A stretch of 64,000 nucleotides of DNA from a virus. The translations under genes and the position numbers were made by a program. The stretch is taken from positions 66,557 through 130,556 of the IMG/VR virus record IMGVR_UViG_3300043331_000441; one strand, written 5' to 3'. Below the pieces are notes generated by a model that was not told the DNA's origin, made no database searches, and saw only the letters and a program-made list of their open reading frames with translations. Positions 1 through 59,966 of this stretch are shown here, in pieces; positions within the stretch are counted from its first letter, which is position 1; each line of letters starts with the position of its first letter.

Positions 1-77
1 CCGAGGCCAAGCGCGGCCGTCGCCGCATCGACGGTCTGCTGATACCAAGCCCACCTCCGGTTCTCTTCTCCGGTCAT
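1..77 (-). CDS. partial ORF running off the window (MTGEENRRWAWYQQTVDAATAALGL...), possibly a holin or membrane protein
   Basis: ATG at 77 preceded by GAGG; open to the window edge; follows the lysin-like gene. Confidence 0.3.
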   Translation of the reverse strand, partial: MTGEENRRWAWYQQTVDAATAALGL

Positions 78-164
78 GCCTCATGTGTCACGCCTGGACC
101 CCCGCTGGCTTGGCAGTTGTGTGTCTGCGGCACGACTGATGGTACGTCGCAGGTCGGTCAGTCT

Positions 165-1445
165 CTACGTTCCCAGCTGGGCCAAATCCACCCAATTTGC
201 AGGGATCATGCCCTCAGACAGATAGACGCCGATCTGGCGTCCATAGTTGTCGAGTTCTGCGCTGCCGCCGCGATACACGCTCATGCTCGTGTCGTTCCAC
301 AGACCGATCGCTGGAGTCGCGTAATCGAATCCGTGCTGCTCAAGCGCTGCCCACATCATCTTCGAAATCGGGAAGTGGGCGCCGCCGTCTTGCACGTAGC
401 ACTCCACGGTGGCGTGGGTGCAGTACGGACGCATGCGTTCGTACTCAACCGTGGTCAGCTCGCCTTCTGGATGCTGGGTGGTCGGCGGGCGACGAGTGAA
501 CGTGTTGAACCCATACAGGGTCGTGAACACCGAGCGCGCGATGCCCTGCCCAACTCCGGCTTCGAAGTTGGCTATCGCCCGGTTGTACTCATCTGGCGTC
601 TCGATCTGCGGCATATACCCGTCTGCACGAGTGAGCGCGATCACTTCACCGTCATTTGGATGCGCGGACCCCCACAACACGACCTTCATGCCGAACTTGC
701 GCACACGACCAGGTGCATCCATGTTGAACAGCGGCTCGCCATTGGCGATCTGCAGACCGACCGTGGCGACCCCGGCTGCCTTCATCTTCTGCCACGCCGT
801 ATCGAGATCGCGGTAGTCGGAATCGTTGAGCGGGCCCCACGCCGTTGACATGAATGGCAGCGGCAACATCCAGGTGTTCGCAGGACCGGGCGGTTGGGGC
901 GGAGGAGGAGGCGGAGGCGGCGGCCCGAGCGGAACTGCCTGATTGATCTTTTTCAGATGCCCCCAGCACCACTGTGGGATCGATGCGGGAATGTTGGTTG
1001 GGCGAGGCGTAGCAGGGTTCGAGAACCGTTTGCGCTGCCATGCCGCCCAGTTGAGGAACGACCAGATGTACGGAGCGACAACAGACGGTTCTTTGGGAAT
1101 GTTCGGTGGGATCGGCTTCGGCTGGTTCTGGAAACGCCAGATCGCCCACGTAAGCACCCACGAATGGGGACAAGTTGTGGTACCCGGAATCTGGATTGGC
1201 GCTCGTGCGTTGACGCCATCCAGCACGGCATACGCCCATGCCTTGATCCCATCCGGCTTGGGAAACGTCGTCGGACGCGGCTGGGGGCGCCCCTTCCTGC
1301 GCCAGATGCACCAGTAGAGAACCTCGTCGGCGTAGGCAGGAACGTTCGCGGGAACAGAATCAGGCCGGTCGGCGAGCTTGCCTGAGTTGATCCGCCAGAC
1401 GATGTAGTCCTCAAGCCAGTCGTCAGGTGTGTCAGGCCAGGCCAC
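165..1445 (-). CDS. putative endolysin/cell-wall hydrolase: Trp/Pro-rich N-terminal repeats, poly-Pro linker, glycoside-hydrolase-like C-terminal domain
   Basis: ORF track 165..1508; start re-assigned to GTG 1445 (GAGG upstream, overlaps the preceding ORF). Repeats WxxWR..RP..VP..IP, PPPPPPPP linker, alternating beta/alpha C-terminal domain; located next to a membrane protein and an NlpC/P60 gene. Confidence 0.55.
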   Translation of the reverse strand: MAWPDTPDDWLEDYIVWRINSGKLADRPDSVPANVPAYADEVLYWCIWRRKGRPQPRPTTFPKPDGIKAWAYAVLDGVNARAPIQIPGTTTCPHSWVLTWAIWRFQNQPKPIPPNIPKEPSVVAPYIWSFLNWAAWQRKRFSNPATPRPTNIPASIPQWCWGHLKKINQAVPLGPPPPPPPPPQPPGPANTWMLPLPFMSTAWGPLNDSDYRDLDTAWQKMKAAGVATVGLQIANGEPLFNMDAPGRVRKFGMKVVLWGSAHPNDGEVIALTRADGYMPQIETPDEYNRAIANFEAGVGQGIARSVFTTLYGFNTFTRRPPTTQHPEGELTTVEYERMRPYCTHATVECYVQDGGAHFPISKMMWAALEQHGFDYATPAIGLWNDTSMSVYRGGSAELDNYGRQIGVYLSEGMIPANWVDLAQLGT

Positions 1446-45129: not shown

Positions 45130-46923
45130 TCACCTCCCGCCGTTTGCATCCTTGGATCGTTCAAGGTGCGTGGCGAACCCGACCGGTAGCTGTGGTAGCC
45201 GCTCGTCATACAACGTGCGGGCAGCAAACGACTCGATCATCTCGCAGATCGCGTCTGCCTGCTTCGGTGTGTAGTCCCAGTAGACGAGCATGTCCTTGAA
45301 AGTGTCCGTCCCGCCCCGGACGAGACGCAAGGGTTCCCAGCCAAGTCGCTCGACGACACCGGGCCCGATGATCGATGCGACCAGCGCATGCGGCTGTCCG
45401 TCTGCCTTCTCGAAGCAGTCAGGACAGTTGCGATGCTTCTGATAGAGCCTGATCCCTGCTAGCTCACGACAGCGCGCAAGTGCCATCATCGCCGCGCCCA
45501 TCGCTTCGTAAGACTCTGCCGACGAGGTAACGACTCTTGTCCGACGCCCGGAATCCCCCTCCGGACCGGGCGTCGGAGGCCCATCCACCGCAGGATCACG
45601 CCCGTTTGTCGTGGCTGTCGAGATCTGCTGTCGCGACGGCTGCTTGTTGCGGCCCTGAATCTCAAGCCACCACTGCTCGTCCTCGTCGTCCGGTGCCCAT
45701 TCCTCAGGAATGTTCTTCATCAGGCGGTAGCCGCGACGACTGACGACTCCGTACTTCGCAGCGTCGTCTGCATCGTCCGAGCGATCCGGCTTGACAACAA
45801 CGGCTGATGCGTCGTAGTCAACGACTACCGACCCCCAATTGGGGTATCCGGCATCACGGAGCGCTGGTTGGAGATACGCGGCGCCGAGTTCGTCGCAGAA
45901 CTGCTCGGCGACCGGAGCGCCGTGCGACTTCCACATGTCGCCGAGAATCTGCATCGACGCCCAGTGATTTGTGTTGCCAAGGCCTTTGAGCGCCTCCGGC
46001 GGCATGTCCATGCCGTACGCGAGGCGATCGATTGCCTCTTTGCGCAGGTCGCGCTCCATGTAGTCGTTTTTCGTGTCGTGCGTCTGGATGTAACGGATCT
46101 TCTCGATGTACTCACCCATCACCCACGAGACGAGTGGTGCGCGACCGGCTGCCGAGTCAGGCTCTTCGATCGCCTTGATCATGTTGTTGAGGAAGTCCTC
46201 CGACCACGGGTCCATATAGACGTCCTCGTCACCGCCAGCCTCGGCGGGAGGCGGAGCGATCTCGGTCGGAAGGAAAAGCAGCCCGTTGGTCAGGCGCGAA
46301 GTGGCGGTTGCACGCACAGACTTTGTGAGCAAGATCAGCTCTTCGGCAATCTCCAGTGCGGCCTGCATCGGTGATTCAGCGTCATAGGAACGATGTGGAC
46401 TTGGTGTCCACATGCGATACACAACCGCCTGGTCTGGGCTGTACTCACGTGTCGTCGAGCCCGACAGCTTGTGGATGATCTTCTTGACGCCGCCGTTCGA
46501 GTTCGTTTCGACATCGATTTCGCCGTTCCAGACAAACGACCAACGCTCACGCTCTGTTTCAAGCTCGCGCCCAAAGAGCAGACCCTCGCCGGTGATGAAC
46601 ATCAGGCGGCCGTAGTTCCAGAGCAACTGCGACTTGCCACCGCCCGGATCACGAATCCGACCCAGAAGATCAACAGGCAAGCCGTCCTTGATTTCAACCT
46701 TCTGCTCCTGCGCATCGATCATGGAAGGAAAGATGCGCAGCGGCTTCAACATGCGCGCATAGAAACGCGACGCGAAGCCGAGTTCCGGTACTAGCTTTGA
46801 GACAGCAAGTGCCCTCTCTTGCCACGGCAGCTTGCTTCGCTTTGCGTAATCAGAATCGCGGTCGCCTACTCGGTAGGCAGACGCGACAAGATTGCGTCCA
46901 AGACGCCGATTGGGCAGAGCCAT
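45130..46923 (-). CDS. portal protein
   Basis: 597 aa; VPEL.FASR......LRI, R.W.P.P.....A.SP, LA..MDMPPE.L.G...NHW....I. Confidence 0.88.
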   Translation of the reverse strand: MALPNRRLGRNLVASAYRVGDRDSDYAKRSKLPWQERALAVSKLVPELGFASRFYARMLKPLRIFPSMIDAQEQKVEIKDGLPVDLLGRIRDPGGGKSQLLWNYGRLMFITGEGLLFGRELETERERWSFVWNGEIDVETNSNGGVKKIIHKLSGSTTREYSPDQAVVYRMWTPSPHRSYDAESPMQAALEIAEELILLTKSVRATATSRLTNGLLFLPTEIAPPPAEAGGDEDVYMDPWSEDFLNNMIKAIEEPDSAAGRAPLVSWVMGEYIEKIRYIQTHDTKNDYMERDLRKEAIDRLAYGMDMPPEALKGLGNTNHWASMQILGDMWKSHGAPVAEQFCDELGAAYLQPALRDAGYPNWGSVVVDYDASAVVVKPDRSDDADDAAKYGVVSRRGYRLMKNIPEEWAPDDEDEQWWLEIQGRNKQPSRQQISTATTNGRDPAVDGPPTPGPEGDSGRRTRVVTSSAESYEAMGAAMMALARCRELAGIRLYQKHRNCPDCFEKADGQPHALVASIIGPGVVERLGWEPLRLVRGGTDTFKDMLVYWDYTPKQADAICEMIESFAARTLYDERLPQLPVGFATHLERSKDANGGR

Positions 46924-49721: not shown

Positions 49722-49854
49722 GGCGGGCGTGGTGTGAAGATCGGTGTTTTGGCGTCCTTGGCCACTAGACGACATAGCCCGAAGGCCACGGCGGGATTCG
49801 AACCCGCGTATCCCTCTTATCAGGAGATAACCGATGCTTCTCCGGCCCAACCGC
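49722..49854 (-). ncRNA. Y-RNA-like unit G (permuted tRNA with a retained GAT anticodon-like loop)
   Basis: CTC-CTGATAA-GAG loop, GCGGG-TTCGAAT-CCCGC, CGTGGCC-TTCG-GGCTATG acceptor, GTC-TAGTGGCCAAG-GAC D-arm. Confidence 0.82.
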
Positions 49855-49865
49855 ATGAGACTCTA

Positions 49866-50066
49866 TCAGGCCGCGACCGGAGCCTTCGGAGGGCGCCCGC
49901 GACGCTTAATCTGGCGGCCTCCAAGCTCCTCTGCCTCTGAATCGGTGATGTCCAGGATACGCACACCCTTCTTGGGATCGTGGAACTTGATCGTCACCGA
50001 CGCACCTGTGCCCTCGGGGATTTCCTGTCCCGAGCGATCACTCACAAACACTTCCTTCTTAGCCAT
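49866..50066 (-). CDS. Lsr2-like small DNA-binding protein (dimerisation-like N-terminus plus RRGRPPK AT-hook)
   Basis: MAKKEVFVSD.SG...V.I....LD.TD.EA..L...RRGRPPK; strong AAGGAGG SD. Confidence 0.65.
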   Translation of the reverse strand: MAKKEVFVSDRSGQEIPEGTGASVTIKFHDPKKGVRILDITDSEAEELGGRQIKRRGRPPKAPVAA

Positions 50067-50070
50067 TACA

Positions 50071-50089
50071 CCTCCTTTCTCTAAGGAGG
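50071..50089 (-). promoter_or_regulatory. hairpin sequestering the SD of the Lsr2-like gene
   Basis: Minus strand CCTCCTT-AGAGA-AAGGAGG, starting 1 nt after the ugd stop codon. Confidence 0.55.
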
Positions 50090-50090
50090 A

Positions 50091-51161
50091 TTATACGTCT
50101 ACGGCAGGATCTGTGTGCGTGAACTCGATGTTACGTTCGCGCAGAATGTTTGCAAGTAGCGTTGCTGGGGAACCAACAGTCAGCGCAGTCTCGGGCTTAT
50201 AGGCTTTCCCGAGGATCTCAACGGGTCGAAAGGCAGATTGCGCGTTCTGTTCTTCGGCGATCAGGTCTGCGAGCCACTCGGTCTGTCGTTCTCGGCAGAC
50301 CATGAGTGCTTCAAATAGGTCGTAGGACAAATTGACTTCCCTTGCCAGCCAGGAGAGGGCGATGTTGTCGCGGGGGTGGCAACCGCCGCCGTCCCCCATC
50401 CCTCCGCGCAGATAGGCCGGGCTGAGAAGTCGCCTGTCGGCCAGAGACAAGGCGTCCACAAGGTCATCGACGTCCGCTCCTGTTTTCTCGCATAGCTCCA
50501 TCATCGTGTTCGCGAACGCGATCTTCAAGCCAATGAAGGTGTTGTAGGCAACTTTCGTCAGTTCTGCCGTTCTGATCGTGGTGACAAACATCGGCCGCTT
50601 ATGGATCACGCCATAGAACTCCCGCAGCGGTTCTGTGTGCGCACCATCGGTGCCAACGAGCACGAACTCTGGGTCGCGGAAGTCGGGGATGGTGGTGCCC
50701 ATCGCGATGAAGAACGGGTTGTAAAGCAAGCGCGACAATAGATCGGGATGGCCAGAGAACAACACGCGCTCAACGGTGCCGGGGAGCACCGTGGAGATCA
50801 CGACGATCGGGCATTGCGCATCCACGACTGATGTTACGGCGTTCCACAAGTGGCGGTAATCGAAGTCGGCGCGCGTCTCAGATAGCCTCGTCACGCCCTC
50901 ATACTCTGGCTGGTGCGGAGTCTGCACAGCGACAAACACAATGTCGGCCCATGGGCAGATTGCATCCGGCGGCATCAACCGCAGATGACTGACATCAAGC
51001 AGCTCCTGGGCGCCCTCTTCGACATACGGCAGCTCGCGCTTTTCGATGTAGGCACGGACTGTGGGGCTGGTATCCCAGCCCCACACGTGATGTCCGGCGG
51101 CTTCGGCAGCAAGCGCGACGGGAAGCCCAAGCTTGCCCAGGCCAATGAAGCCAACTCTCAC
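50091..51161 (-). CDS. ugd: UDP-glucose/GDP-mannose dehydrogenase, lacking the C-terminal ~50 aa
   Basis: GFIGLGKLG Rossmann motif, ISTVLPGT, YNPFFIAMG, ELTKVAYNTF, GDGGGCHPRD catalytic Cys, GKAYKP; ends DPAVDV. Confidence 0.92.
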   Translation of the reverse strand: MRVGFIGLGKLGLPVALAAEAAGHHVWGWDTSPTVRAYIEKRELPYVEEGAQELLDVSHLRLMPPDAICPWADIVFVAVQTPHQPEYEGVTRLSETRADFDYRHLWNAVTSVVDAQCPIVVISTVLPGTVERVLFSGHPDLLSRLLYNPFFIAMGTTIPDFRDPEFVLVGTDGAHTEPLREFYGVIHKRPMFVTTIRTAELTKVAYNTFIGLKIAFANTMMELCEKTGADVDDLVDALSLADRRLLSPAYLRGGMGDGGGCHPRDNIALSWLAREVNLSYDLFEALMVCRERQTEWLADLIAEEQNAQSAFRPVEILGKAYKPETALTVGSPATLLANILRERNIEFTHTDPAVDV

Positions 51162-51349
51162 GAGAAAGCGTCCATCATCTTCGCCGAGCAGAGCCGCCCG
51201 ATCTCCATCAGGGCTTCTTCATCCTCTGGCTTTGGTGGGAAGGTGATCTCGTCAATCTGACGTAGTAACTCCCAAAGAGCGATCCGCTCGAACTCATCGA
51301 AGTCGAAGAACTCGCAGAGGGACTCGAAGTGCTCTTCCTTCTCGGTCAT
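51158..51349 (-). CDS. 63-aa acidic hypothetical protein
   Basis: ATGA overlap at 51349; 3' part of the track ORF 51158..51622. Confidence 0.55.
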   Translation of the reverse strand: MTEKEEHFESLCEFFDFDEFERIALWELLRQIDEITFPPKPEDEEALMEIGRLCSAKMMDAFS

Positions 51350-51555
51350 GCAGGCGGAAGCAGCAACTTGCCCTCGACGGTCATCAGGATCTTGTCGCCC
51401 AACAACTGCTTGAACACACGACGGGCAGCGCGACGCTCGCCCTTCTTGATCTCGCTCATCAGGTAATCGACGGTGTTCGCGCGGCGCGAGACAGCGACGA
51501 TGAGTTCGCGCTCCAACCTCGCTGCCTGTGCTGGATCTACTTCGGTGACAGCCAT
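51346..51555 (-). CDS. small hypothetical protein (winged-helix-like)
   Basis: 69 aa with AAGGAG SD. Confidence 0.6.
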   Translation of the reverse strand: MAVTEVDPAQAARLERELIVAVSRRANTVDYLMSEIKKGERRAARRVFKQLLGDKILMTVEGKLLLPPA

Positions 51556-51566
51556 GCTGTTCTCCT

Positions 51567-52322
51567 TTACCGTTTGACGAGTACCGCCCCAAGATACTCG
51601 CCGTGCTTGGTGAGATATTCACATTCTTTCACATCGAACCACGCACCGAACCGTTCTTCGAGTCTTTTTTGGTCATACCAGTCGGCGTATCCGCCGATCG
51701 GGTCCCAGTGCGTCCAGTAGCGCTCAAACAGCTCTGAGTCAGCGACTGATTCTGGTGGTTCTGTCTTGGTGGCGATGCGCCACGCTTCGTCCGAGTAGAC
51801 CATGAGGCGCAGCTCGCCGTTATGGACGAGCCAATGCGCCATATGCGAAACGACCGGCACCGGGTTTGGAATGTGATGTAGCACGCCGCAGCAGTGGATC
51901 ACGTCGAACTGGGCGTGATGGGCGTCGAAGATGAAGGGCGGCGCTTCATGAATGCGGAAGGAGCGCTCGGCGCGATAGCCGCTTGCCTCCAGCGTGCGCT
52001 TTGCGAGCATGATGTTGTACTCGGTGATGTCAGCAACGTAAACGCGGTTGCCCATCTTCGCGTACTGCAGCGCCTCAAGGCCGACGCCGCAACCGTAGTC
52101 GAGCACATCTTTGCCACGTGTTGTGTCGAGGCCGAGCACCGTTCGCCAACGCATCTGGAAGTTTCGCCAACCGCCATAGCGCGATTCGGCCATCTTCCCG
52201 AGCACATCATTGAGCGTCTCGTCGTCCCAGGTCAGCATCTCCTGAGCGGGGAAGTAGCCGATATCGTCGACCGGGGGCGACGACCATGCTTTGCGTCGTT
52301 CTGAGAAGGACGGGATCGTCAT
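51567..52322 (-). CDS. class I SAM-dependent methyltransferase
   Basis: DVLDYGCGVG, FDVIHCCGVLHHIP. Confidence 0.9.
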   Translation of the reverse strand: MTIPSFSERRKAWSSPPVDDIGYFPAQEMLTWDDETLNDVLGKMAESRYGGWRNFQMRWRTVLGLDTTRGKDVLDYGCGVGLEALQYAKMGNRVYVADITEYNIMLAKRTLEASGYRAERSFRIHEAPPFIFDAHHAQFDVIHCCGVLHHIPNPVPVVSHMAHWLVHNGELRLMVYSDEAWRIATKTEPPESVADSELFERYWTHWDPIGGYADWYDQKRLEERFGAWFDVKECEYLTKHGEYLGAVLVKR

Positions 52323-52912
52323 ACACGCCCTCTAAAAACGCCATGGAACGCCATCCCGGAATGGCCAAGGAATGTCTGAAGCTCAGTGACCTTGCCTGGT
52401 TGATCCAGCCACTGCTCTAGCAGCGTTGGCCTGATGCTATGCGGATGCCAGCGGTCAATTGGTTGGTAGCACCACTCCATCAGGCGCAGTACTGGAGCGA
52501 GGCGAAGCGCAACACGAATGAACTCTTCGGGATTGATCACATGCTGGAGAACGTTGTAACACCATGCTTCGTCGTAACCACCCGCGTCGTCAGGCAGTTC
52601 CTCAACGGGCATCTTGAGCAGGCTGATACCGACTTCCGAATATCTGATCCGCGTCCAGTACGGATACTCGCACGGATCGACTACGGCACAGTTCGGGCCC
52701 AAGTTCTGACACTTGAGCAGCAGCGAGGATGGTCCTCCTCCGAGGTCAACCACGTTGCGTCCTTCAAGATCGATCTGCATCCATTGGTTCGGGTGCAAGT
52801 CCATCAGCGGCGCGAACTCGATCTGCTTCATGTCCTCGACGAGGGTGGTGCGGCAGTCGCCCCACCACTCGGCCTCGGCCTTCTGCGCGAAGCGCCACTG
52901 ATCGAACATCAC
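52319..52912 (-). CDS. class I SAM-dependent methyltransferase
   Basis: VVDLGGGP..L, VVDP, YDEAWCYNVLQHV..P, HPH. Confidence 0.85.
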   Translation of the reverse strand: MMFDQWRFAQKAEAEWWGDCRTTLVEDMKQIEFAPLMDLHPNQWMQIDLEGRNVVDLGGGPSSLLLKCQNLGPNCAVVDPCEYPYWTRIRYSEVGISLLKMPVEELPDDAGGYDEAWCYNVLQHVINPEEFIRVALRLAPVLRLMEWCYQPIDRWHPHSIRPTLLEQWLDQPGKVTELQTFLGHSGMAFHGVFRGRV

Positions 52913-52980
52913 AGTCGCCGGGCGATGTAAATGATCAGCAGAACAAGCAGAACGAGAACCAGCAGCTCAACGAGCGTCAC
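52909..52980 (-). CDS. 23-aa single-TM micro-protein resembling a type IV pilin N-terminal helix
   Basis: GTGA-coupled at both ends; MTLVELLVLVLLVLLIIYIARRL. Confidence 0.65.
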   Translation of the reverse strand: MTLVELLVLVLLVLLIIYIARRL

Positions 52981-53183
52981 TCGGCTGACTCCCAATAATC
53001 GGGTGGGATCGGCTGGGCGACCGACCCCTCATCGAGCGGCAGCTCTGGTGGGATAACAGCACCAACCCCAGCCGGGTCGCCACCTTCATTGAGCAGCCGA
53101 CGTAACTCAAGGAGTTGTTCAACAGAGAGGCGGCGGATGATCTCGGCAATCGTCGCCACAGACAGCTCTGGAGTCTCAGCCAT
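52977..53183 (-). CDS. 68-aa hypothetical protein
   Basis: Start re-assigned to ATG 53183, which overlaps the upstream stop. Confidence 0.55.
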   Translation of the reverse strand: MAETPELSVATIAEIIRRLSVEQLLELRRLLNEGGDPAGVGAVIPPELPLDEGSVAQPIPPDYWESAE

Positions 53184-53379
53184 TGACGAGCCTAATCGTT
53201 GTTTGCTTCGTCTTGAGCAGCTTCTCCCACGAGTCGCTGTCGTGGTTGACCATCTCCAATGCTTGGGGGATGAATGAGATGTTGACGGCCAGAAACGAGT
53301 CCCGCTCATGGTCGACGCTAATGCTGTTGACGCAGTCGTAGATGCGTCCGTCGATCTCAACTACGAGTCCGAACTGCAC
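53176..53379 (-). CDS. hypothetical protein (start uncertain; frame open further upstream)
   Basis: 67-aa track ORF that fills the operon gap. Confidence 0.45.
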   Translation of the reverse strand: MQFGLVVEIDGRIYDCVNSISVDHERDSFLAVNISFIPQALEMVNHDSDSWEKLLKTKQTTIRLVNG

Positions 53380-53452
53380 GCCGGGCGTTTGTCCGGGCTT
53401 GGTGGTTTCGGAACCGGTGATGCCTCTGGTGTGGATCCTGATGTTCAGGACA

Positions 53453-53704
53453 TCACCAACCGCGCCTGGCTCTGATCCAGGGCACCTTCCAGCTCATCGG
53501 AGCGATGCCAGCCCATAAGAGCTTCCGCCACCATGGAGCATCGTTCTCCCAGGCAATGTCCGCGACCCGATGCCACCATTCTGCATCCTCCCAGCCCTGG
53601 TTCCACTCCGCTTCAAACCGGTCTAATGCTTTGTTGGCCTGCTCATCCGTGATCAGTTCGAACTCGCGCAGGGTCTCGATCATCCATGGGTAGCTCATGC
53701 TCAC
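53453..53704 (-). CDS. Trp-rich hypothetical protein
   Basis: 83 aa; GTGA-coupled. Confidence 0.6.
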   Translation of the reverse strand: MSMSYPWMIETLREFELITDEQANKALDRFEAEWNQGWEDAEWWHRVADIAWENDAPWWRKLLWAGIAPMSWKVPWIRARRGW

Positions 53705-54525
53705 GACATTGCCGCCCTGAGCTTCGCCGCATCGTTCTCTCGGTCTTGTTGTGTTCTCTTGTAGAGGTCGACAACGCCATCTTTGAGACCACGCTCCTCA
53801 CGCTCGGCGTGAGTTTGATCGCGCTCAGCCTTTCCGAACGTGTAATGCCAGTGTTCGGTCACGAACGGCAGGAGCTTGTGTCTCCCGATCATCTTCGCGA
53901 CCTCGTTAAGCCACACGTCGTTCCAATCGGACGAGAACAGTGGAGGCACGAAGTATCCCACTGTTTCAACCCATTTGCGATGCAGGAAGCCATGCGTGCC
54001 GAACGTTTCTCCGTGCGGTCCACGATCATCGCCGTAGGCAAACAGGATCTTGTCAGGTGTTTCCGCGAACGCCTTGCGGACGACGGCATCCCAGCCAGGC
54101 GTGTCAAACGTGAGGTCATCCCCGCAATGCATCATGATCTCGCCACGGGCCTTCGCTGCGCATTCATTCCAGCATGCTGACAGCAAGGCCCGTGGCCCCA
54201 CGAGATATTCAACGCCACGGAAGTGGGGTGAGAAATAGTCCTCGACGCGGGGGTCATCCTCGTCAAGCCGCACGATGAACTCGATCCGACGTGTATGGGT
54301 TGCTGTTTGGAACGCGGTCAGGATCGTGCGACCTAGCCAATCGGGGCGCCCCCGCGAAGGGACGAGAATCGAGATCATGGTTGGTTTGTTTTCACCGACG
54401 CGGCGGATTGTCACATCAGTCTGTTCGGGGATATAGCGCCATGGGTCGATCACCGTACTACCCGGCCCGAAGTCCATCTCGGTGTACTGCGCGTGTTTGG
54501 TCGCGACGAAGTAGACCTTGCTCAC
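53701..54525 (-). CDS. GT2 glycosyltransferase with a 49-aa N-terminal extension resembling the missing Ugd C-terminus
   Basis: GTG 54525 overlaps the peptidase TGA; ISILVPSRGRP, MHCGDD, WNDVW, EHWH GT-A motifs from 54378. Confidence 0.88.
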   Translation of the reverse strand: MSKVYFVATKHAQYTEMDFGPGSTVIDPWRYIPEQTDVTIRRVGENKPTMISILVPSRGRPDWLGRTILTAFQTATHTRRIEFIVRLDEDDPRVEDYFSPHFRGVEYLVGPRALLSACWNECAAKARGEIMMHCGDDLTFDTPGWDAVVRKAFAETPDKILFAYGDDRGPHGETFGTHGFLHRKWVETVGYFVPPLFSSDWNDVWLNEVAKMIGRHKLLPFVTEHWHYTFGKAERDQTHAEREERGLKDGVVDLYKRTQQDRENDAAKLRAAMS

Positions 54526-55343
54526 AAGGGCAGCTCCACCGATGTCCACGCTTCACCGTAGGCCTGATATAGGCCTGTCCAGTCAGAGAGCTTCATTTTG
54601 AACGAACCGCTGAGGCCCCAGTTTCCACCCCATGAGTTCTTGAAGATCAGCGTGTCGCCCTGGACGCCGTAGAGCAAATATGCGTGCCCGCCCGCGTAGC
54701 CTCCGGTTGGCTTGATGTATCCGCTCGCGTCTGGTTCGAACATGTCGTACGTCCAGTCGGTGCCGACGACCAGCGGCCCATGCTGGCGTAGCCAGGCGAG
54801 CACGTCTGCGATCGTCGCCGCCGCGGCGTATGTGGTGAGACGGCCACGAGCCTGCATTGCCTTTGCTCCGTCACGCGGGTAGGCCCCGTCCTCCTCACCG
54901 GGGCGCCCTTCGATCACCTTGCACTCGTAGTAGATCGCGTGCCCGTCGCTGTCTCCATAGGTGTTCTCAACTGGCTCGGCATCGCTCCAGCCTGCCCAGC
55001 TAAAGCCGACGCAATGCCCGGTGTTGCTTTGGTCGAGCTGAAAACCAGTGACGTCCCATGACTTGTCGGTCGTTGGCACAGGCGGCGGGCCGCCAGCGAT
55101 CTGCGCCAGCGCATTGAACGCCTTCCACCAGTGGGTCACGGTGACATCGCTGTAGTAACGGGCGGCCCACTGCTTGTAGGTGATCGTCGTCTTTCTCAGC
55201 TCTGCGGCCGCGTAGAGCGCCAAGTCTTCTGCTGTGCCAGCGACCAACTCGCTGCCGAGCGCTTGAAAGTTTGCGAGCCGAAAGTCGCGTAGGTCTGGTG
55301 GTGATGGCTTGCGACCAAGGAGTTGCGGGGATGGTTCAGCCAT
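54522..55343 (-). CDS. papain-like (C1) cysteine peptidase
   Basis: LDQ..TG.CVGFS (Gln/Cys), GGHAYL..G (His), KNSWG..WG (Asn); N-terminal PDLRD. Confidence 0.88.
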   Translation of the reverse strand: MAEPSPQLLGRKPSPPDLRDFRLANFQALGSELVAGTAEDLALYAAAELRKTTITYKQWAARYYSDVTVTHWWKAFNALAQIAGGPPPVPTTDKSWDVTGFQLDQSNTGHCVGFSWAGWSDAEPVENTYGDSDGHAIYYECKVIEGRPGEEDGAYPRDGAKAMQARGRLTTYAAAATIADVLAWLRQHGPLVVGTDWTYDMFEPDASGYIKPTGGYAGGHAYLLYGVQGDTLIFKNSWGGNWGLSGSFKMKLSDWTGLYQAYGEAWTSVELPL

Positions 55344-55346
55344 GTC

Positions 55347-55985
55347 CTACTCCTTTACGGGCGGTGTGATCCCGCGCAGCGCCCATGTTTGTTGGTAGTA
55401 CTCGTCGTCTGGATCTTCGCGCGCGAGGCTGACGATGCAGGATTTGCGCACACGTGTCCAGCGATAACCCATCTCGACTACCGCTGGCGAGAGAAGCGAG
55501 TCTTCAGTCCAACCAGGCGGGTATTCGACACCCCAGGGACGCTCGTCGTAACGCAACCCCTTGTCCCACAGCTCGCGTCGAATCACGTTGTTGCCGCCGA
55601 CGTTGCTGGGGGCGCTGAGTTCCTCTTTGCTGGTCCGCAGTCCGACTTGGCCAACGTGGACATCGCGGAAGCGGTCGAGCATCGCTTCGCACCAGCCGCC
55701 CAGATATGAGAAGTCGTTGTCGGAGCGATGTAGGAATGTCGTCTGCGGCGGCATCTGTTCCCAGCCCCGGTTGCAGGCAAAGCCGGGGAAACGATTCTGT
55801 TCAAGGAAAATGACCGTGTCGTGCGGTGAAACATCGAGTGTCAGCCAGCGTCTAGTCTCGTTATCTGACGCGTTATCGACGATCACGAGCGAGTACGGCA
55901 CAGAAACAGTCTCTTTGTATGACCTGTAACACTGCTGGAGAAGCTCCAGACGGTTGAACGAGATGATCACCGAGTGAAGGTGCAT
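55347..55985 (-). CDS. GT2 glycosyltransferase
   Basis: IISFNR, IVDNASD, SDND, EDS motifs. Confidence 0.88.
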   Translation of the reverse strand: MHLHSVIISFNRLELLQQCYRSYKETVSVPYSLVIVDNASDNETRRWLTLDVSPHDTVIFLEQNRFPGFACNRGWEQMPPQTTFLHRSDNDFSYLGGWCEAMLDRFRDVHVGQVGLRTSKEELSAPSNVGGNNVIRRELWDKGLRYDERPWGVEYPPGWTEDSLLSPAVVEMGYRWTRVRKSCIVSLAREDPDDEYYQQTWALRGITPPVKE

Positions 55986-56773
55986 CAGCGTGCTTCGCAG
56001 GACGTACAGAGCGGAGCAAGTTCCGATTTCGCAAACAGTGCGGTCTGGCCTGCATCGAGATCCCTTGCCTGTCTACTCGCCCAGACGCTTGCGACTATCC
56101 CGCGCTTCTCACACTCGGCCTCCAGTGCATTGATCTGACGCGCTGTATCTGGGAACCAGGCGGCAATGTCATGGATTTCTTCCGAACGTGCCAGCGCACC
56201 ACAGAGACACTCGCCCGATCGATGCAGCAGATCAACAACTCGATTGCGCTGAAGTCCCTTTCGTTCGATGAACTCGTTGCAATCAAGCTTCGTCCAGTCA
56301 AGGATCGGAGAAATCCACGTCATCCGCGTGTTTTTCGAATCGCGTCGGATCGGGACGCTGATGCCAGCGCCCATCCGACGTACAGATTCGTCTTTCCGAA
56401 TACCGGTCACAAAACCGTGCCGCCCCTCGATTCGTCGATGCCAGCGCAGCAACGGCTGCTGCTTCAAGTAGAAGAGCATCGTGTTGTGGCTCGCGCTGCC
56501 GTAGGGGAAGCCGCCGCGCGTGAGCACAAGTTCTGCGTAACGCCCCTCCGGAGCGTGAACCTCATGCAACGACCAGCGCTGGCGCTCGCAGGTGTCGCGC
56601 ACGAACTGGCGCGTTTCTTCGATACCGATCCCCGTGTTGATGTGCACAACACCGGCAAATAGCGGGTGTTGTGCTGCAAGTGCGGTCGAAACGAGTGAAT
56701 CGTGACCGCCAGAGAAAAGTGCGTAGATATGCGTAAGATCTTCTTGCGCGACAGCATCCTCAAATACACTCAT
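55985..56773 (-). CDS. PAPS-reductase-family (PP-loop) protein
   Basis: LFSGGHDS, HINTG, GIRKDES.RR, PILDW, SGECLCG, C-terminal CTSC. Confidence 0.88.
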   Translation of the reverse strand: MSVFEDAVAQEDLTHIYALFSGGHDSLVSTALAAQHPLFAGVVHINTGIGIEETRQFVRDTCERQRWSLHEVHAPEGRYAELVLTRGGFPYGSASHNTMLFYLKQQPLLRWHRRIEGRHGFVTGIRKDESVRRMGAGISVPIRRDSKNTRMTWISPILDWTKLDCNEFIERKGLQRNRVVDLLHRSGECLCGALARSEEIHDIAAWFPDTARQINALEAECEKRGIVASVWASRQARDLDAGQTALFAKSELAPLCTSCEAR

Positions 56774-57402
56774 ACGACCCGCTCTTGGTACAGCTCGGGA
56801 AATAATTCAGCCTGCACGCGCAAATGCATTTCTACCTGCGCCTTGCGGTCGCGCCACATTGTTCGATGCGCAGACTGCGGGTTGATGTGGGCGTTGTAGA
56901 TCGCCTGTGGTACGGGGAAGACACGCGCGCCTGCTTTCCAACACTTGGCCCACAGTGACCAATCTTCAAAACCGTGCGGGTAGTTGCTGAATCCTCCGAC
57001 TTGCTGAAAGAGCCTGCGCCGCAGTACCGTGCCAACAACGAGGTAGTTATCTGTACTGAGATCCTTTTCCGGGATCAAATACACCGGGCCAGGCCGTCCT
57101 TTGCGGTGATAACAGACAGATGGCTGCAATAACGCTGGTTCAGGCCGTGCATCGGAGCAGATTGCCTCCGTCATCGCACGGCAATAGTCGTAATGCAGGT
57201 CGTCATCGGCGTCGAGGAAGAGCAACCACTCTCCTGTGGCCCGTGACGCAGCACGGTTGCGAGCTGGGCCTATCTCACCACCGCGATCGTGGTGATAGAT
57301 CACTTCATAGGCGTTCTGTTCTTGCGCTGAGGGAATGGCGCGTTGCATCGCAACCTCGCGCCAGTGATCTGCGCCGTAGGTTGTAATGACAATGGAGATC
57401 AA
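56770..57402 (-). CDS. GT2 glycosyltransferase
   Basis: ARNRAA..A.GEWLLFLDADD, GGF...EDW.LW. Confidence 0.9.
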   Translation of the reverse strand: MISIVITTYGADHWREVAMQRAIPSAQEQNAYEVIYHHDRGGEIGPARNRAASRATGEWLLFLDADDDLHYDYCRAMTEAICSDARPEPALLQPSVCYHRKGRPGPVYLIPEKDLSTDNYLVVGTVLRRRLFQQVGGFSNYPHGFEDWSLWAKCWKAGARVFPVPQAIYNAHINPQSAHRTMWRDRKAQVEMHLRVQAELFPELYQERVV

Positions 57403-58097
57403 CGCTGCCGCTCCATGCGTAGCCGTTCTTGGTCAAGACGCGCGATCTTGCCGCGGCGTTGCATAAACATTCGCTGATCGTGTGATGTAGAGCGATGTGC
57501 CTTCTCATACGTTGCATCCATCTCCGATTTGCCCCAATGCGGATGCAAATGTTCGACTATGGAACGCTTTGAGAAGACAAATTGACGTCTTCGCGTTGCG
57601 GTCTCGATGAATTCACTATCTGTCCATTGGTGATCGTAGGCCTCGGAAAAGATCAGCCCCGTCCCATCGGAGGTACCGCCGTAGTGCGTGATATAGGAAC
57701 GAGCAAAGAGCGAATGCGTCGAATGACGTCCGCGCTTGACAAGCGGGTTACCAAGGTCGTTCGTGCCGACGACACCACAGCCCGTGCGCTCAGCAAGCTT
57801 GAGCGCATACACATCCCAGCCCGGATAGAAAACAAGGTCGGTGGCTCCCTGGAAGAGCCACGGTTCATCTGTCTGCTCGAAGCCAAGCGCAAGCTTTTTG
57901 GCGTAATCAGCCTTTCCGGGCTGCCACGTTGCTGTTAAGAGCAGTGCTTGTGAATCTTTTGCCTCCTCGATCGCCGTATCCCCGGGCGAGAAGATGAATA
58001 CGACCCGATGTGCGCTACTAGTGTTTTCGGCGACAGAGGCGAGGAGCGGCTTGATCTGCTGGGGGCGCCCCAGCACGGGAATCAGCAGTGCGATCAC
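57399..58097 (-). CDS. GT2 glycosyltransferase
   Basis: LIPVLGRP, GA.DL.F..GW, GTNDLGN, H.W.D.E, VEHLHP. Confidence 0.85.
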   Translation of the reverse strand: MIALLIPVLGRPQQIKPLLASVAENTSSAHRVVFIFSPGDTAIEEAKDSQALLLTATWQPGKADYAKKLALGFEQTDEPWLFQGATDLVFYPGWDVYALKLAERTGCGVVGTNDLGNPLVKRGRHSTHSLFARSYITHYGGTSDGTGLIFSEAYDHQWTDSEFIETATRRRQFVFSKRSIVEHLHPHWGKSEMDATYEKAHRSTSHDQRMFMQRRGKIARLDQERLRMERQR

Positions 58098-58364: not shown

Positions 58365-59966
58365 CTATGCGGCTGCTCGACGACGAAGTCTGTGAATCCC
58401 GCTGGTCTTGATCGGGGCATTCTGACGACTCCGAATCCAGTTTCCGAACTGGCTCCAAGCGTCCACATCGTCGTCATGCTTGGCATGGGGAAAGCTGGCA
58501 CAGCTGGCGATGAACTTTGCCACGTCGGCGGGAGTTCGATGTTCGTCGTAGGCCGGTTGCCAGGGGGGTCCATATCCAGGCAGGAAGTAGTTACCTGACT
58601 CCAGGGCATCTGATGCTGATTCTGCACGGGTCTCCTTGTTTCCTTCTACACCAGCAGGGATCTTCTGCACACCAGTAATTTCCCGCTTCAAGTCCACGAT
58701 CAGCTCTACGCCATAGCCTGCGTTCTCGATCAGAACCGAGAAATAGCTCGTTCGCCAGGTCTGTCGCGCCCAATTGGCCATGTCGCGGATCGTCCGCTTT
58801 GCTTTGCCGTAGTTCATCTTGTCGCAGACAAGGTCAAGCAGATAGCGATCTGCGCCCTTGACGCCCCAGCACTGGATCGCAACGTTGTCTGATGTCTCTT
58901 TGTCTTTGAGCGGTGTGTCGACCGAGATCACGATCTGGTCGAAGCGGTCGAGTTCTTTCCAGCGTTCCATCGTGCGGATACGCGGATCGTAGAAACGCCA
59001 CCACTCGACTTTGAGGATCTCGCCTTCACGGGCGGCTGGTCGCTGCTGCAGCTGTCCGGCGGCACGGTGGCTGCCGAGCGATCGTGCCAGCGCCTCCGAT
59101 GCTTTCTCGTCGCGATGGTCTGGCCATAACAGCTCGCCTTCTGTGCGCGGGTCATTGGGCCAGACAAACGGATGGTCTGGTTCGTAGCGTTCGGGCAGGC
59201 AAAGAACGGTCCAGTCTTCGAGGTCAAGCACGTGCGCGGCAAGGTCGTCTTCGTGCAGACGCTGCATCACGATCACACGCGCATGCTTGAAGCCGATGTC
59301 GATCCCGCGCGTGGAGAGCGTGCCGTCCCACCAGGTGTTTGCCTCGTCAAGCGAGGCGCGGCTGGTGGCGTCGGCGGCGTCGGCCTTGATCGGGTCATCG
59401 ACGATGATCCGATGTCCGTGCTCCCCGGTTCCGGTCGACTTCGGGGCGGTCGCGAGGCGTGTGCCGCCACGGTCGTTGCCGTAGTAGTGCTCGCCTTCGC
59501 GCACGAACTGGAACATGTGGCCCCAGCGCAGCTGGTACCAGTCACTCATCATCAGTGTGCGGCTCATGGCCGACATGCGTCCAGCGAGGCGTGTCTCGTA
59601 GGAAGCCGACCAGTAGCGCAGCCAGGGGCGGGTCGTCCATTCCCATGGATGCCAGAAGACGGAGACGGTGCCCGTCTTCATTGATCCTGGGGGCACCCAG
59701 ATCTGTAGACGGGTTATCTCTCCGTCTGAAACCGCTTGCAGGTGTTCGCAGATCGCGTCGATGTGCCAGTTGTGGTGGTAGGGCACCTCTGGATTGAGCA
59801 CATGCCAGCCGGAGGCGATGAACTTCGAGAGCGACTTGGGAAGTTCTTCACGCTCGCGTGAGACGTCGCGCCGCGCGCGTTCGGCAAGCAACGCCTCGTA
59901 CAGCCGTTTGGTCTCGTCGCTGAGACCGGGCGTGAGGTCAGGCAGCTGCTGACTCGTCGTCGACAT
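58365..59966 (-). CDS. terL: terminase large subunit
   Basis: VPPGSMKT Walker A, IIVDDP Walker B, MQRLHEDDL, nuclease ISVDT and HDDDVDA. Confidence 0.95.
   Translation of the reverse strand: MSTTSQQLPDLTPGLSDETKRLYEALLAERARRDVSREREELPKSLSKFIASGWHVLNPEVPYHHNWHIDAICEHLQAVSDGEITRLQIWVPPGSMKTGTVSVFWHPWEWTTRPWLRYWSASYETRLAGRMSAMSRTLMMSDWYQLRWGHMFQFVREGEHYYGNDRGGTRLATAPKSTGTGEHGHRIIVDDPIKADAADATSRASLDEANTWWDGTLSTRGIDIGFKHARVIVMQRLHEDDLAAHVLDLEDWTVLCLPERYEPDHPFVWPNDPRTEGELLWPDHRDEKASEALARSLGSHRAAGQLQQRPAAREGEILKVEWWRFYDPRIRTMERWKELDRFDQIVISVDTPLKDKETSDNVAIQCWGVKGADRYLLDLVCDKMNYGKAKRTIRDMANWARQTWRTSYFSVLIENAGYGVELIVDLKREITGVQKIPAGVEGNKETRAESASDALESGNYFLPGYGPPWQPAYDEHRTPADVAKFIASCASFPHAKHDDDVDAWSQFGNWIRSRQNAPIKTSGIHRLRRRAAA

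What the first reader, a model, noticed from the sequence alone, without database searches (positions are those of the whole stretch)
50091..54525. Split, order-reversed UDP-glucose dehydrogenase: its C-terminal segment is fused to a glycosyltransferase 3 kb upstream
Seen: Ugd stops at ...GSPATLLANILRERNIEFTHTDPAVDV, part-way through the UDP-binding domain. The GT2 ORF starts (clean GTGA coupling at 54525) with SKVYFVATKHAQYTEMDFGPGSTVIDPWRYIPEQTDVTIRRVG before its own MISILVPSRGR at 54378. From recollection, this subfamily ends ...YDP.VD...VYFIGTKH..F....F..GSVVIDPWRYIP....V.VI.IG, so the 49-aa tag is the missing end. Both junctions look like adapted gene boundaries. Inference: fragment complementation would physically dock the dehydrogenase on the transferase, channelling UDP-glucuronate. 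Alternatives are a circular permutation of the 50.1-54.5 kb block or a mis-assembly.
Basis: partly seen in the sequence, partly recalled or inferred. Interest (0 to 1): 0.8.

Follow-up and report, generated by a model that had tools for sequence, protein, structure and literature searches.

The report
Split dehydrogenase completed by glycosyltransferase tag
In a large group of uncultured phages, the last 45 residues of a sugar-nucleotide dehydrogenase have moved onto the front of a neighbouring glycosyltransferase and are still conserved there, so the two enzymes probably have to lock together for the dehydrogenase to be whole, much like a laboratory split-protein tag.

Summary
The dehydrogenase gene (50091-51161, minus strand, 356 aa) stops in the middle of its UDP-sugar domain. 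The first 44 residues of the GT2 glycosyltransferase 3.4 kb upstream (start 54525) are the missing end. A profile of 59 full-length phage relatives is covered at positions 2-359 by the first piece and 369-412 by the tag; only a variable loop is absent.

It is not a mis-assembly or a relic. Five other IMG/VR contigs have the same layout. At least 119 metagenomic protein clusters carry tag plus GT, and 120 carry the truncated dehydrogenase. The truncated forms make one clade. The tag has dN/dS about 0.08, like the GT domain. Its start codon overlaps the upstream stop in all four loci examined, and the internal Met is not conserved.

Sister phages have GT ... methyltransferase - full-length dehydrogenase, so only the last 45 codons moved.

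No intein, intron or junction repeats were found. The best reading (about 0.7) is non-covalent co-folding that ties the dehydrogenase to the transferase. Binding, activity and channelling are untested.

I found no prior description. I class it as a new variant of natural gene fission with complementation. The scan had not noted this on other DNA.

The parts
50091..51161 (-). Truncated nucleotide-sugar dehydrogenase ('UgdN', 356 aa). It has the NAD-binding domain, the central domain with the catalytic Cys motif GGGCHPRD, and the first strand-helix-strand of the UDP-sugar domain. It ends 4 residues after ..THTDP.
   Evidence: nodes 2-359 of 413. PHROG 9148 'UDP-glucose dehydrogenase', E 9e-74. 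The 120 closest database relatives are all 285-370 aa.
54394..54525 (-). The tag: residues 1-44 of the glycosyltransferase. It equals the last strand-helix-strand-strand of the dehydrogenase's UDP-sugar domain and contains the T-x-H, VIDPWR and final G motifs.
   Evidence: HMM nodes 369-412, E 1e-15. Aligned with 27 full-length tails. Invariant T9, H11, D27, P28, R30 and G44 in 40 homologues. dN/dS 0.08. AF2 secondary structure E4-6, H13-16, E24-26, E39-41.
54376..54393 (-). Short conserved linker (residues 45-50, consensus ENKPAL) joining the tag to the first strand of the GT-A fold. In this window it holds an ATG (54378) that is not conserved.
   Evidence: Column identity 0.67. The consensus has L where the window has M. 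pLDDT dips to 76 here.
53701..54375 (-). GT2 / GT-A glycosyltransferase domain (residues 51-274).
   Evidence: PF00535 at 24.0 bits against a cutoff of 23.3. phrog_14945, E 1.5e-34. AF2 pLDDT 93.7. Foldseek matches GT-A transferases, best E 7.5e-9.
54522..54525 (-). GTGA start/stop overlap between the upstream peptidase-like gene and the tag-GT gene.
   Evidence: The same overlap occurs in L009 (GTGA), L013 (GTGA) and L030 (TTGA), although the upstream gene differs.
51567..52322 (-). SAM-dependent methyltransferase (251 aa). It is the one gene always found between the two pieces, and it also lies in front of the full-length dehydrogenase in a sister phage.
   Evidence: tblastn matches in L009, L030, L013 and L011 and in the unsplit sister L168.
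51346..51555 (-). Small ORF (69 aa) just upstream of UgdN. It is conserved only in the closest relatives and is probably not part of the mechanism.
   Evidence: L009 57%, L030 51%. L013 has a different small ORF at this position.
52319..53704 (-). Variable filler between the tag-GT gene and the conserved methyltransferase: a second methyltransferase (52319-52912) and small ORFs (52977-53360, 53453-53704).
   Evidence: Only the 127-aa ORF has matches in L009 and L030. In L013 the tag-GT gene is followed directly by the 251-aa methyltransferase.
54522..58097 (-). Upstream part of the same glycan operon: papain-like peptidase (54522-55343), GT2 (55347-55985), PAPS-reductase-like PP-loop enzyme (55985-56773), GT2 (56770-57402), and a GT-A paralogue of the tagged GT (57399-58097). 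The operon lies between the large terminase (58365-59966) and the portal (45130-46923).

Best explanation
This is a conserved natural split enzyme.

The dehydrogenase is made as two polypeptides. The 356-aa body carries the NAD domain, the catalytic domain and the first strand-helix-strand of the UDP-sugar domain. A 44-residue piece carries the remaining three strands and one helix of that domain, and it forms the N-terminus of a GT2 glycosyltransferase of the same operon.

The two pieces are proposed to co-fold without a covalent bond and rebuild the Rossmann-like UDP-sugar domain. A six-residue conserved linker would then hold the transferase rigidly on the dehydrogenase. Because these dehydrogenases dimerise through the central domain, the complex is probably 2:2. 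The consequence would be that the dehydrogenase is complete only when bound to the transferase, and that its UDP-uronic-acid product is released next to the transferase's donor site.

Shown here: the split, the identity of the pieces, their translation, their conservation and their single origin.

Inferred: binding, restoration of activity, stoichiometry, channelling, and whether the arrangement is adaptive or a neutral ratchet.

Likely origin: the ancestral order was GT ... methyltransferase - dehydrogenase. The last 45 codons came to lie in front of the GT, for example by tandem duplication of the block followed by loss of the outer parts, and fused in frame. The original 3' end was then lost.
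For: - The two pieces tile the full-length profile without overlap. Only the variable loop is missing; in full-length relatives that loop has column identity 0.20 and is where AF2 confidence dips (mean pLDDT 77 over residues 361-370).
- A full-length relative models end to end on solved UDP-glucose dehydrogenases (3vtf: Z 39.3, rmsd 2.3 A, 400 residues aligned, model range 1..419). The tail is therefore an integral part of the fold.
- The tag is as constrained as the catalytic GT domain. dN/dS is 0.081 against 0.089 with synonymous sites near saturation. Column identity is 0.59 against 0.61 over 120 homologues.
- The half-domain left on the body is as conserved as the rest of the body (0.70 against 0.71), so it is not decaying.
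- Tag residues D27 and R30 are invariant. They align with the D-G-R motif of 3vtf. In human UGDH, D440 positions R442, which binds the UDP ribose (PMC12493151).
- The tag's start codon overlaps the upstream stop in four loci with three different upstream genes.
- The internal Met is replaced by Leu in most homologues.
- The genome has exactly one copy of each piece.
- 119 of the 120 closest GT homologues carry the tag, and all 120 closest dehydrogenase homologues are truncated. At least 19 identical longest-contig lengths occur in both lists.
- The 43 sampled truncated forms are monophyletic (support 0.84), with unsplit sisters in the same gene order.
- This GT and this dehydrogenase are neighbours in dozens of unsplit phage contigs, in both orders, and are fused once (P0242, 898 aa).
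- There are no intein parts, introns or junction repeats.
Against: - No physical or enzymatic evidence exists. A two-chain model could not be run here.
- AF2 gives the tag high confidence (pLDDT 86-92) in the transferase chain alone, so the tag might be folded against the GT. The coordinates could not be inspected.
- The Arg of VIDPWR is replaced by G, A or N in some full-length phage relatives, so it may not be essential in this family.
- Earlier notes of this scan describe 'short' UGDH-like enzymes in CPR bacteria that lack the whole UDP domain yet are conserved (unchecked). Partial versions of this fold may therefore work alone.
- Conservation of both pieces fits complementation but would also fit a new, different role for the tag.
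Confidence: 0.7

Rival explanations
1. Domain atrophy with a re-used tag. The 356-aa dehydrogenase works alone with a partial UDP-sugar domain. The 44 residues on the transferase have taken on another role, such as helping the transferase bind UDP-sugar or oligomerise, and do not bind the dehydrogenase.
For: Functional partial domains, including Rossmann folds, are documented (PMC4432964). Unchecked earlier notes of this scan report conserved UGDH-like enzymes with no UDP domain at all. The tag has high pLDDT within the transferase model alone.
Against: The tag keeps the residues that are conserved in the tails of full-length dehydrogenases (T-x-H, D-P-x-R, final G). The body keeps its half of the domain at full conservation. 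The cut lies in the one variable loop. Both pieces were inherited together in a single clade.
Confidence: 0.17
2. Covalent or genetic rejoining. The pieces are joined by protein trans-splicing, by RNA splicing of a permuted transcript, or by a programmed DNA rearrangement, giving a normal contiguous dehydrogenase during infection.
For: Relatives of this very gene do carry inteins and a probable split intein at the catalytic Cys. Excising 50091-54525 as a circle would bring the two ends together.
Against: The body ends 2-15 poorly conserved residues after its last strand, and the tag begins 2-3 residues before its first. There is no room for intein halves, and Pfam finds none. No Rfam intron was found in 49800-54800. 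There are no direct or inverted repeats at the two junctions. A stop codon and a coupled start codon are conserved at the junctions.
Confidence: 0.03
3. Relic of a rearrangement. The dehydrogenase is a dead gene and the tag is untranslated or neutral leftover sequence in front of the transferase's true start at 54378.
For: An ATG exists at 54378 in this window.
Against: That Met is Leu in most homologues. Tag dN/dS is 0.08 with synonymous sites near saturation. More than 100 diverged clusters keep both pieces intact. The catalytic Cys motif and the NAD motif are intact in the body.
Confidence: 0.02
4. Assembly artefact. A contiguous ugd gene was broken and rearranged by mis-assembly of this metagenomic contig.
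For: The record is a metagenome-assembled virus contig.
Against: The same order, the same truncation point and the same tag occur in contigs from five other samples (3300027907, 3300009156, 3300015371, 3300033475, 3300033412) at 63-85% protein identity. They also occur in more than 100 protein clusters from JGI, ENA, NCBI and Logan assemblies.
Confidence: 0.01

Closest known systems
UDP-glucose 6-dehydrogenase / nucleotide-sugar dehydrogenase family (TIGR03026; Pfam PF03721 + PF00984 + PF03720; structures 3vtf, 3gg2, 2q3e, 1dli)
   Same: The body has the NAD-binding and central domains with the catalytic Cys motif. Body plus tag together cover the whole three-domain fold. A full-length phage relative superposes on 3vtf at Z 39.3.
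   Different: All described members have the three domains on one chain. Here the third domain is cut in its middle loop, and its second half is on another enzyme encoded upstream. The substrate was not determined.
Split NrdA of Aeromonas phage Aeh1 (NrdA-a / NrdA-b; PMC3045599)
   Same: It is a phage enzyme encoded in two pieces that assemble without RNA or protein splicing. Both pieces are needed for activity in that case.
   Different: There the split was caused by a homing-endonuclease gene. The pieces stay in their original order, each piece stands alone, and new tails mediate assembly. Here the order is reversed, no endonuclease is present, the cut is inside a domain, and the small piece is fused to a pathway partner.
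Intein-containing and split-intein ('fractured') genes (PMC2677866), including relatives of this same dehydrogenase
   Same: The same gene family is broken in other phages: L128 and L127 carry inteins with LAGLIDADG domains, and L134 and L195 have two adjacent ORFs with intein halves.
   Different: Those breaks lie at the catalytic Cys, keep the gene order and are healed by protein splicing. The window's split lies 90 residues further on, has no intein parts and must be non-covalent.
Engineered split-protein tags (for example GFP1-10 plus the GFP11 strand; PMC6402836)
   Same: A short terminal strand segment fused to a protein of interest completes a larger, otherwise incomplete fold, and so reports or enforces association.
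   Different: Those are artificial. This is a natural, evolutionarily conserved case in which the tag carries three strands and a helix, and the completed fold is an enzyme's substrate-binding domain.
Circular permutation by duplication and deletion, and natural split or permuted DNA methyltransferases such as M.AquI (from my own knowledge, not checked here)
   Same: A C-terminal segment comes to lie in front of the rest of the coding sequence. Tandem duplication followed by loss of the outer parts is the standard route.
   Different: Here the permutation spans a three-gene block rather than one gene. The moved segment therefore lands on a different protein.

Membership tests
Nucleotide-sugar (UDP-glucose/GDP-mannose) dehydrogenase family | N-terminal NAD-binding Rossmann domain with a G-x-G-x-x-G motif | tested here: met
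   PF03721, E 3e-16, residues 1-177. The motif GLGKLG is at the N-terminus.
Nucleotide-sugar (UDP-glucose/GDP-mannose) dehydrogenase family | Central helical domain with the catalytic cysteine | tested here: met
   PF00984, E 1.9e-22. GGGCHPRD is present, and the Cys is invariant in 51 full-length relatives.
Nucleotide-sugar (UDP-glucose/GDP-mannose) dehydrogenase family | Complete C-terminal UDP-sugar-binding domain on the same polypeptide | tested here: not met
   Only PF03720 positions 2-41 of 103 are present. TIGR03026 scores 185.7 bits, below its cutoff of 189.8, and covers 1-357 of 413.
Nucleotide-sugar (UDP-glucose/GDP-mannose) dehydrogenase family | Complete C-terminal domain when the tag of the transferase is counted | tested here: met
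   Nodes 2-359 plus 369-412 of a 413-node family profile are covered.
Nucleotide-sugar (UDP-glucose/GDP-mannose) dehydrogenase family | Two-fold NAD-dependent oxidation of a UDP-hexose at C6; substrate identity | not testable with these tools
   The best named models are UDP-glucose 6-dehydrogenases (AglM, TuaD), but all score far below their cutoffs.
GT2 / GT-A glycosyltransferases | GT-A fold with Pfam Glycos_transf_2 and acidic D-x-D type motifs | tested here: met
   PF00535 at 24.0 bits against a cutoff of 23.3. Foldseek probability 1.00 to GT-A enzymes. D88, D90, D136 and D137 are invariant in 40 homologues.
Split inteins / fractured genes | Intein N-fragment after the first piece and intein C-fragment before the second, with a nucleophile at the junction | tested here: not met
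   No intein domain in either protein. The tails are 2-15 variable residues. By contrast, relatives L128, L127 and L134 do hit PF14890.
Naturally split enzymes assembled without splicing (Aeh1 NrdA type) | Two separately translated pieces that together make up the whole enzyme, both under purifying selection | tested here: met
Naturally split enzymes assembled without splicing (Aeh1 NrdA type) | Pieces bind each other and activity needs both | not testable with these tools
Naturally split enzymes assembled without splicing (Aeh1 NrdA type) | Split caused by a mobile endonuclease gene lying between the pieces | tested here: not met
   The genes between the pieces are methyltransferases and small ORFs with no endonuclease domain. 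In addition, the order of the pieces is reversed.

The most novel reading that the evidence does not exclude
The split is an evolved assembly device, not just a tolerated accident. A 44-residue piece of the dehydrogenase's substrate-binding domain serves as a built-in tag. The tag makes dehydrogenase activity strictly dependent on, and stoichiometric with, the glycosyltransferase that uses its product. The result would be an obligate channelling complex. This would be a natural counterpart of engineered split-protein tethers and a general route to enzyme complexes by interdigitating one domain between two chains.
Probability: 0.3. Interest if true: 0.75.

Novelty: new variant of a known kind. 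Interest (0 to 1): 0.62.

Why it matters
Natural enzymes cut inside a domain are rare. Cases where the small piece is carried by the next enzyme of the pathway are rarer still, and I found none described for this family.

If the pieces co-fold, this clade shows how operon rearrangement alone can turn two neighbouring enzymes into an obligate complex. It would also supply a compact, evolution-tested 44-residue complementation tag based on a Rossmann-like domain.

More than 100 natural variants of both partners are available for studying interface co-evolution.

It also matters for annotation. Gene callers and Pfam label the body as an ordinary 'UDP-glucose 6-dehydrogenase' and miss the tag on the transferase.

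Tried and rejected
- Co-occurrence of the two pieces in the large protein database therefore rests on five IMG/VR contigs, plus at least 19 identical longest-contig lengths shared by the two hit lists. It does not rest on inspected contigs.
- **Megablast.** A search of the block against GenBank phages found nothing.
- **PDB sequence search.** A single full-length relative did not align through the tail. The profile search did, for 3vtf.
- **Full-length dehydrogenase-GT fusion as an intermediate.** I found only one fusion, and it is in the opposite order: GT-GT-dehydrogenase, P0242.
- **Stand-alone 'tag only' mini-proteins or tags on other partners.** In the 1.84-billion-protein library, the 16 candidates look like contig-edge fragments or chimeras. 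The two halves of P0327 never occur together in viral contigs, and P0287 has no close locus. In 63 further viral loci the only intein-less split at this loop is the contig already known.
- **Model coordinates.** They are not available to scripts, so I could not see whether the tag packs on the GT domain in the single-chain model.
- **Small ORF upstream of the body as a possible assembly factor.** Rejected, because it is not conserved across the split clade.
- **Literature.** Searches found no description of this split. The mycobacteriophage virion-glycosylation paper (PMC10527164) is not held.

Full report
**What is there.**
The window is the last 64 kb of a 130,556-bp uncultured virus record, 92% complete by CheckV. 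All the genes described here lie on the minus strand.

Between the large terminase (58365-59966) and the portal (45130-46923) lies a glycan-synthesis operon. In order of transcription it holds:
- a GT-A-like protein (57399-58097)
- a GT2 (56770-57402)
- a PAPS-reductase-like PP-loop enzyme (55985-56773)
- a GT2 (55347-55985)
- a papain-like peptidase (54522-55343)
- the tagged GT2 (53701-54525)
- small ORFs
- two methyltransferases (52319-52912 and 51567-52322)
- a 69-aa ORF
- the dehydrogenase (50091-51161)

The dehydrogenase is 356 aa. Pfam finds complete N-terminal and central domains, but only positions 2-41 of the 103-position UDP-binding domain. NCBIfam's nucleotide-sugar dehydrogenase model is matched over 1-357 of 413 positions and falls just under its cutoff.

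Phage relatives are longer: 381 aa in Pelagibacter phage HTVC008M, 412 aa in Synechococcus phage Bellamy, 417 aa in the huge phage LR756502. Eighty IMG/VR loci gave 59 distinct full-length relatives of 399-440 aa.

I built an HMM from those 59 sequences (413 nodes). It is matched at nodes 2-359 by the 356-aa protein (E 3e-158) and at nodes 369-412 by residues 3-46 of the transferase (E 1e-15).

A search of the whole record with the family profile finds exactly these two places and nothing else. The nine unmatched nodes are the loop that varies in length and sequence in full-length relatives (column identity 0.20).

**It is real and old, not an artefact.**
- The same layout (tagged GT, then the 251-aa methyltransferase, then a dehydrogenase truncated at the same spot) occurs in IMG/VR contigs from five other samples. 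Protein identity is 63-85% for the GT and 70-77% for the dehydrogenase.
- In the 5.8-billion-protein collection, 593 proteins match the tagged GT at E <= 1e-10. Of the best 120 (56% identity or more), 119 carry the tag, and many begin exactly at M-S-K before the first strand.
- The 120 closest dehydrogenase relatives (67% identity or more) are all 285-370 aa and end a few residues after H-[TS]-D-P.
- I built a maximum-likelihood tree of 128 sequences. The inputs were every third truncated database hit, the split loci, all distinct full-length loci, and HTVC008M and Bellamy as outgroup. The alignment was trimmed to the 356 shared positions. The 43 truncated forms make one clade with no full-length member inside (support 0.84). 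Its sister is a group of five full-length sequences, and the joint node has support 1.0.

**The tag is translated and constrained.**
- In four split loci the tag's start codon overlaps the stop of the upstream gene (GTGA three times, TTGA once), although that gene is a peptidase, a small ORF or another GT.
- The window's internal ATG at 54378 is not conserved. The consensus there is A-L.
- Between the window and its 85%-identical relative, synonymous sites are near saturation (pS 0.63). dN/dS is 0.081 for the tag and 0.089 for the GT domain.
- Over 120 homologues, column identity is 0.59 for the tag, 0.67 for the six-residue linker and 0.61 for the GT domain.
- Over 119 truncated dehydrogenases, column identity is 0.70 for the retained half-domain and 0.71 for the rest.

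Neither half of the cut domain is decaying.

**Structure.**
AF2 models a 421-aa full-length relative at pLDDT 93.3. Its third domain reads strand 320-323, helix 338-348, strand 354-356, then a loop in which confidence dips (mean pLDDT 77 over residues 361-370), then strand 377-380, helix 385-388, and strands 397-400 and 413-416.

That model superposes end to end on solved UDP-glucose dehydrogenases (3vtf: Z 39.3, rmsd 2.3 A, 400 residues aligned, model range 1..419). The cut therefore falls in that loop. One strand-helix-strand stays on the body and strand-helix-strand-strand goes to the tag.

By the usual Rossmann strand order (my inference, not computed here), the tag's strands would lie on both sides of the body's two strands. 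That means co-folding rather than simple docking.

The tagged GT models at pLDDT 93.7. The tag shows the same secondary structure (E4-6, H13-16, E24-26, E39-41) and confidence dips at the linker. The GT part matches GT-A enzymes.

In a profile alignment the family's ..viD-p-f-R-y.. lines up with ..vvD-G-R-y.. of 3vtf. In human UGDH, D440 positions R442, which binds the UDP ribose (PMC12493151). D27 and R30 of the tag are invariant in the split clade. However, the Arg is G, A or N in some full-length phage relatives, so its necessity here is uncertain.

**How it arose.**
This GT and this dehydrogenase are neighbours in dozens of unsplit phage contigs, in both orders, often with overlapping ends. 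They are fused once, as GT-GT-dehydrogenase in the 898-aa protein P0242.

In the sister group, L168 has GT ... 251-aa-methyltransferase homologue - full-length dehydrogenase. The split clade has the same order, except that the last 45 codons sit in front of the GT. This is an operon-level circular permutation.

Tandem duplication of the block followed by loss of the outer parts would produce it, with every intermediate still functional. That route is inference.

**What it is not.**
- No intein domain, and no room for intein halves.
- No intron in 49800-54800.
- No repeats at the two junctions that could support excision or inversion.

By contrast, relatives of the same gene do carry inteins, and probable split inteins, at the catalytic Cys. 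Splicing-based repair is therefore used elsewhere in this family but not here.

**Mechanism, with odds.**
- Most likely (about 0.7): the two chains co-fold and rebuild the UDP-sugar domain, tethering the transferase to the dehydrogenase through a short rigid linker.
- A partial-domain dehydrogenase working alone, with a re-used tag: about 0.17. This rival gains some weight from documented domain atrophy (PMC4432964) and from unchecked earlier notes on CPR 'short' UGDH-like enzymes.
- Rejoining, relic and artefact together: under 0.1.

Whether the arrangement is adaptive (gating, stoichiometry, channelling) or a neutral ratchet cannot be decided from sequence.

**Comparison and novelty.**
The closest described case is the split NrdA of phage Aeh1, which assembles without splicing (PMC3045599). 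It differs in three ways: it keeps gene order, it was caused by a homing endonuclease, and its pieces stand alone.

I found no description of a nucleotide-sugar dehydrogenase split in this way, or of its tail on a glycosyltransferase. The scan's own index has no such note on other DNA.

I class it as a new variant of a known kind, with interest 0.62.

Noticed in passing
L128:12810-15272; L127:13954-17529 (also L160, L213, L215); L134:7366-9126 (also L135, L136, L139); L195:1592-4147; L228:532-4174: Relatives of the same phage dehydrogenase are invaded by inteins at the catalytic-Cys site. The 821-aa form has one intein with a LAGLIDADG domain. The 1192-aa forms have two insertions. Some contigs have the gene in two ORFs with intein-like halves; in L195 about 840 nt lie between them, like the 'fractured genes' of PMC2677866.
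   Followed up: partly
P0242 (898 aa, one Logan contig of 12,533 bp): A natural single-chain fusion of two GT-A domains with a full-length dehydrogenase of this family, in the order opposite to the window's tag fusion. It is a single sequence, so a frameshift or a gene-calling artefact is not excluded.
   Followed up: partly
window 52319-53704: The second methyltransferase (52319-52912) and the 83-aa ORF (53453-53704) have no counterpart in the closest split relatives. In L013 the tagged GT is followed directly by the 251-aa methyltransferase. The space between the two pieces is therefore a site of gene gain and loss.
   Followed up: partly
window 57399-58097: The 232-aa protein with no Pfam hit is a distant paralogue of the tagged GT (about 23-25% identity by tblastn, same PHROG 14945). 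The operon therefore has four GT-A-type transferases.
   Followed up: partly
L170 (Mycolicibacterium sp. S2-37, NZ_JAFEVR010000004.1), L169 (Saccharimonadales MAG), L171 (Actinomycetota MAG): The only hits of the GT family in 185,579 species genomes are these three. L170 and L169 have an untagged GT near a full-length dehydrogenase. L170 may be a prophage and hints at actinobacterial hosts for part of the family.
   Followed up: no
A3 alignment; L023, L024, L028, L031, L045, L077: The Arg of the VIDPWR motif is invariant in the split clade but is G, A or N in several full-length phage relatives. This is odd if it corresponds to the UDP-ribose-binding Arg of classical UDP-glucose dehydrogenases.
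   Followed up: no
L001 (LR756502.1 456387-457640), L002 (HTVC008M), L003 (Bellamy): In marine and huge phages the full-length dehydrogenase sits next to a NadE-like amidotransferase, a methyltransferase and often a carbamoyltransferase. This suggests a conserved phage pathway to a modified uronic acid or uronamide. The window has a PAPS-reductase-like PP-loop enzyme instead.
   Followed up: no
P0327, P0306, P0321, P0330 (short proteins): These short database proteins join the dehydrogenase tail to unrelated N-terminal sequence. For P0327 the two halves map to different viral contigs and never together, so they are probably chimeric assemblies or miscalled genes rather than further natural splits.
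   Followed up: partly
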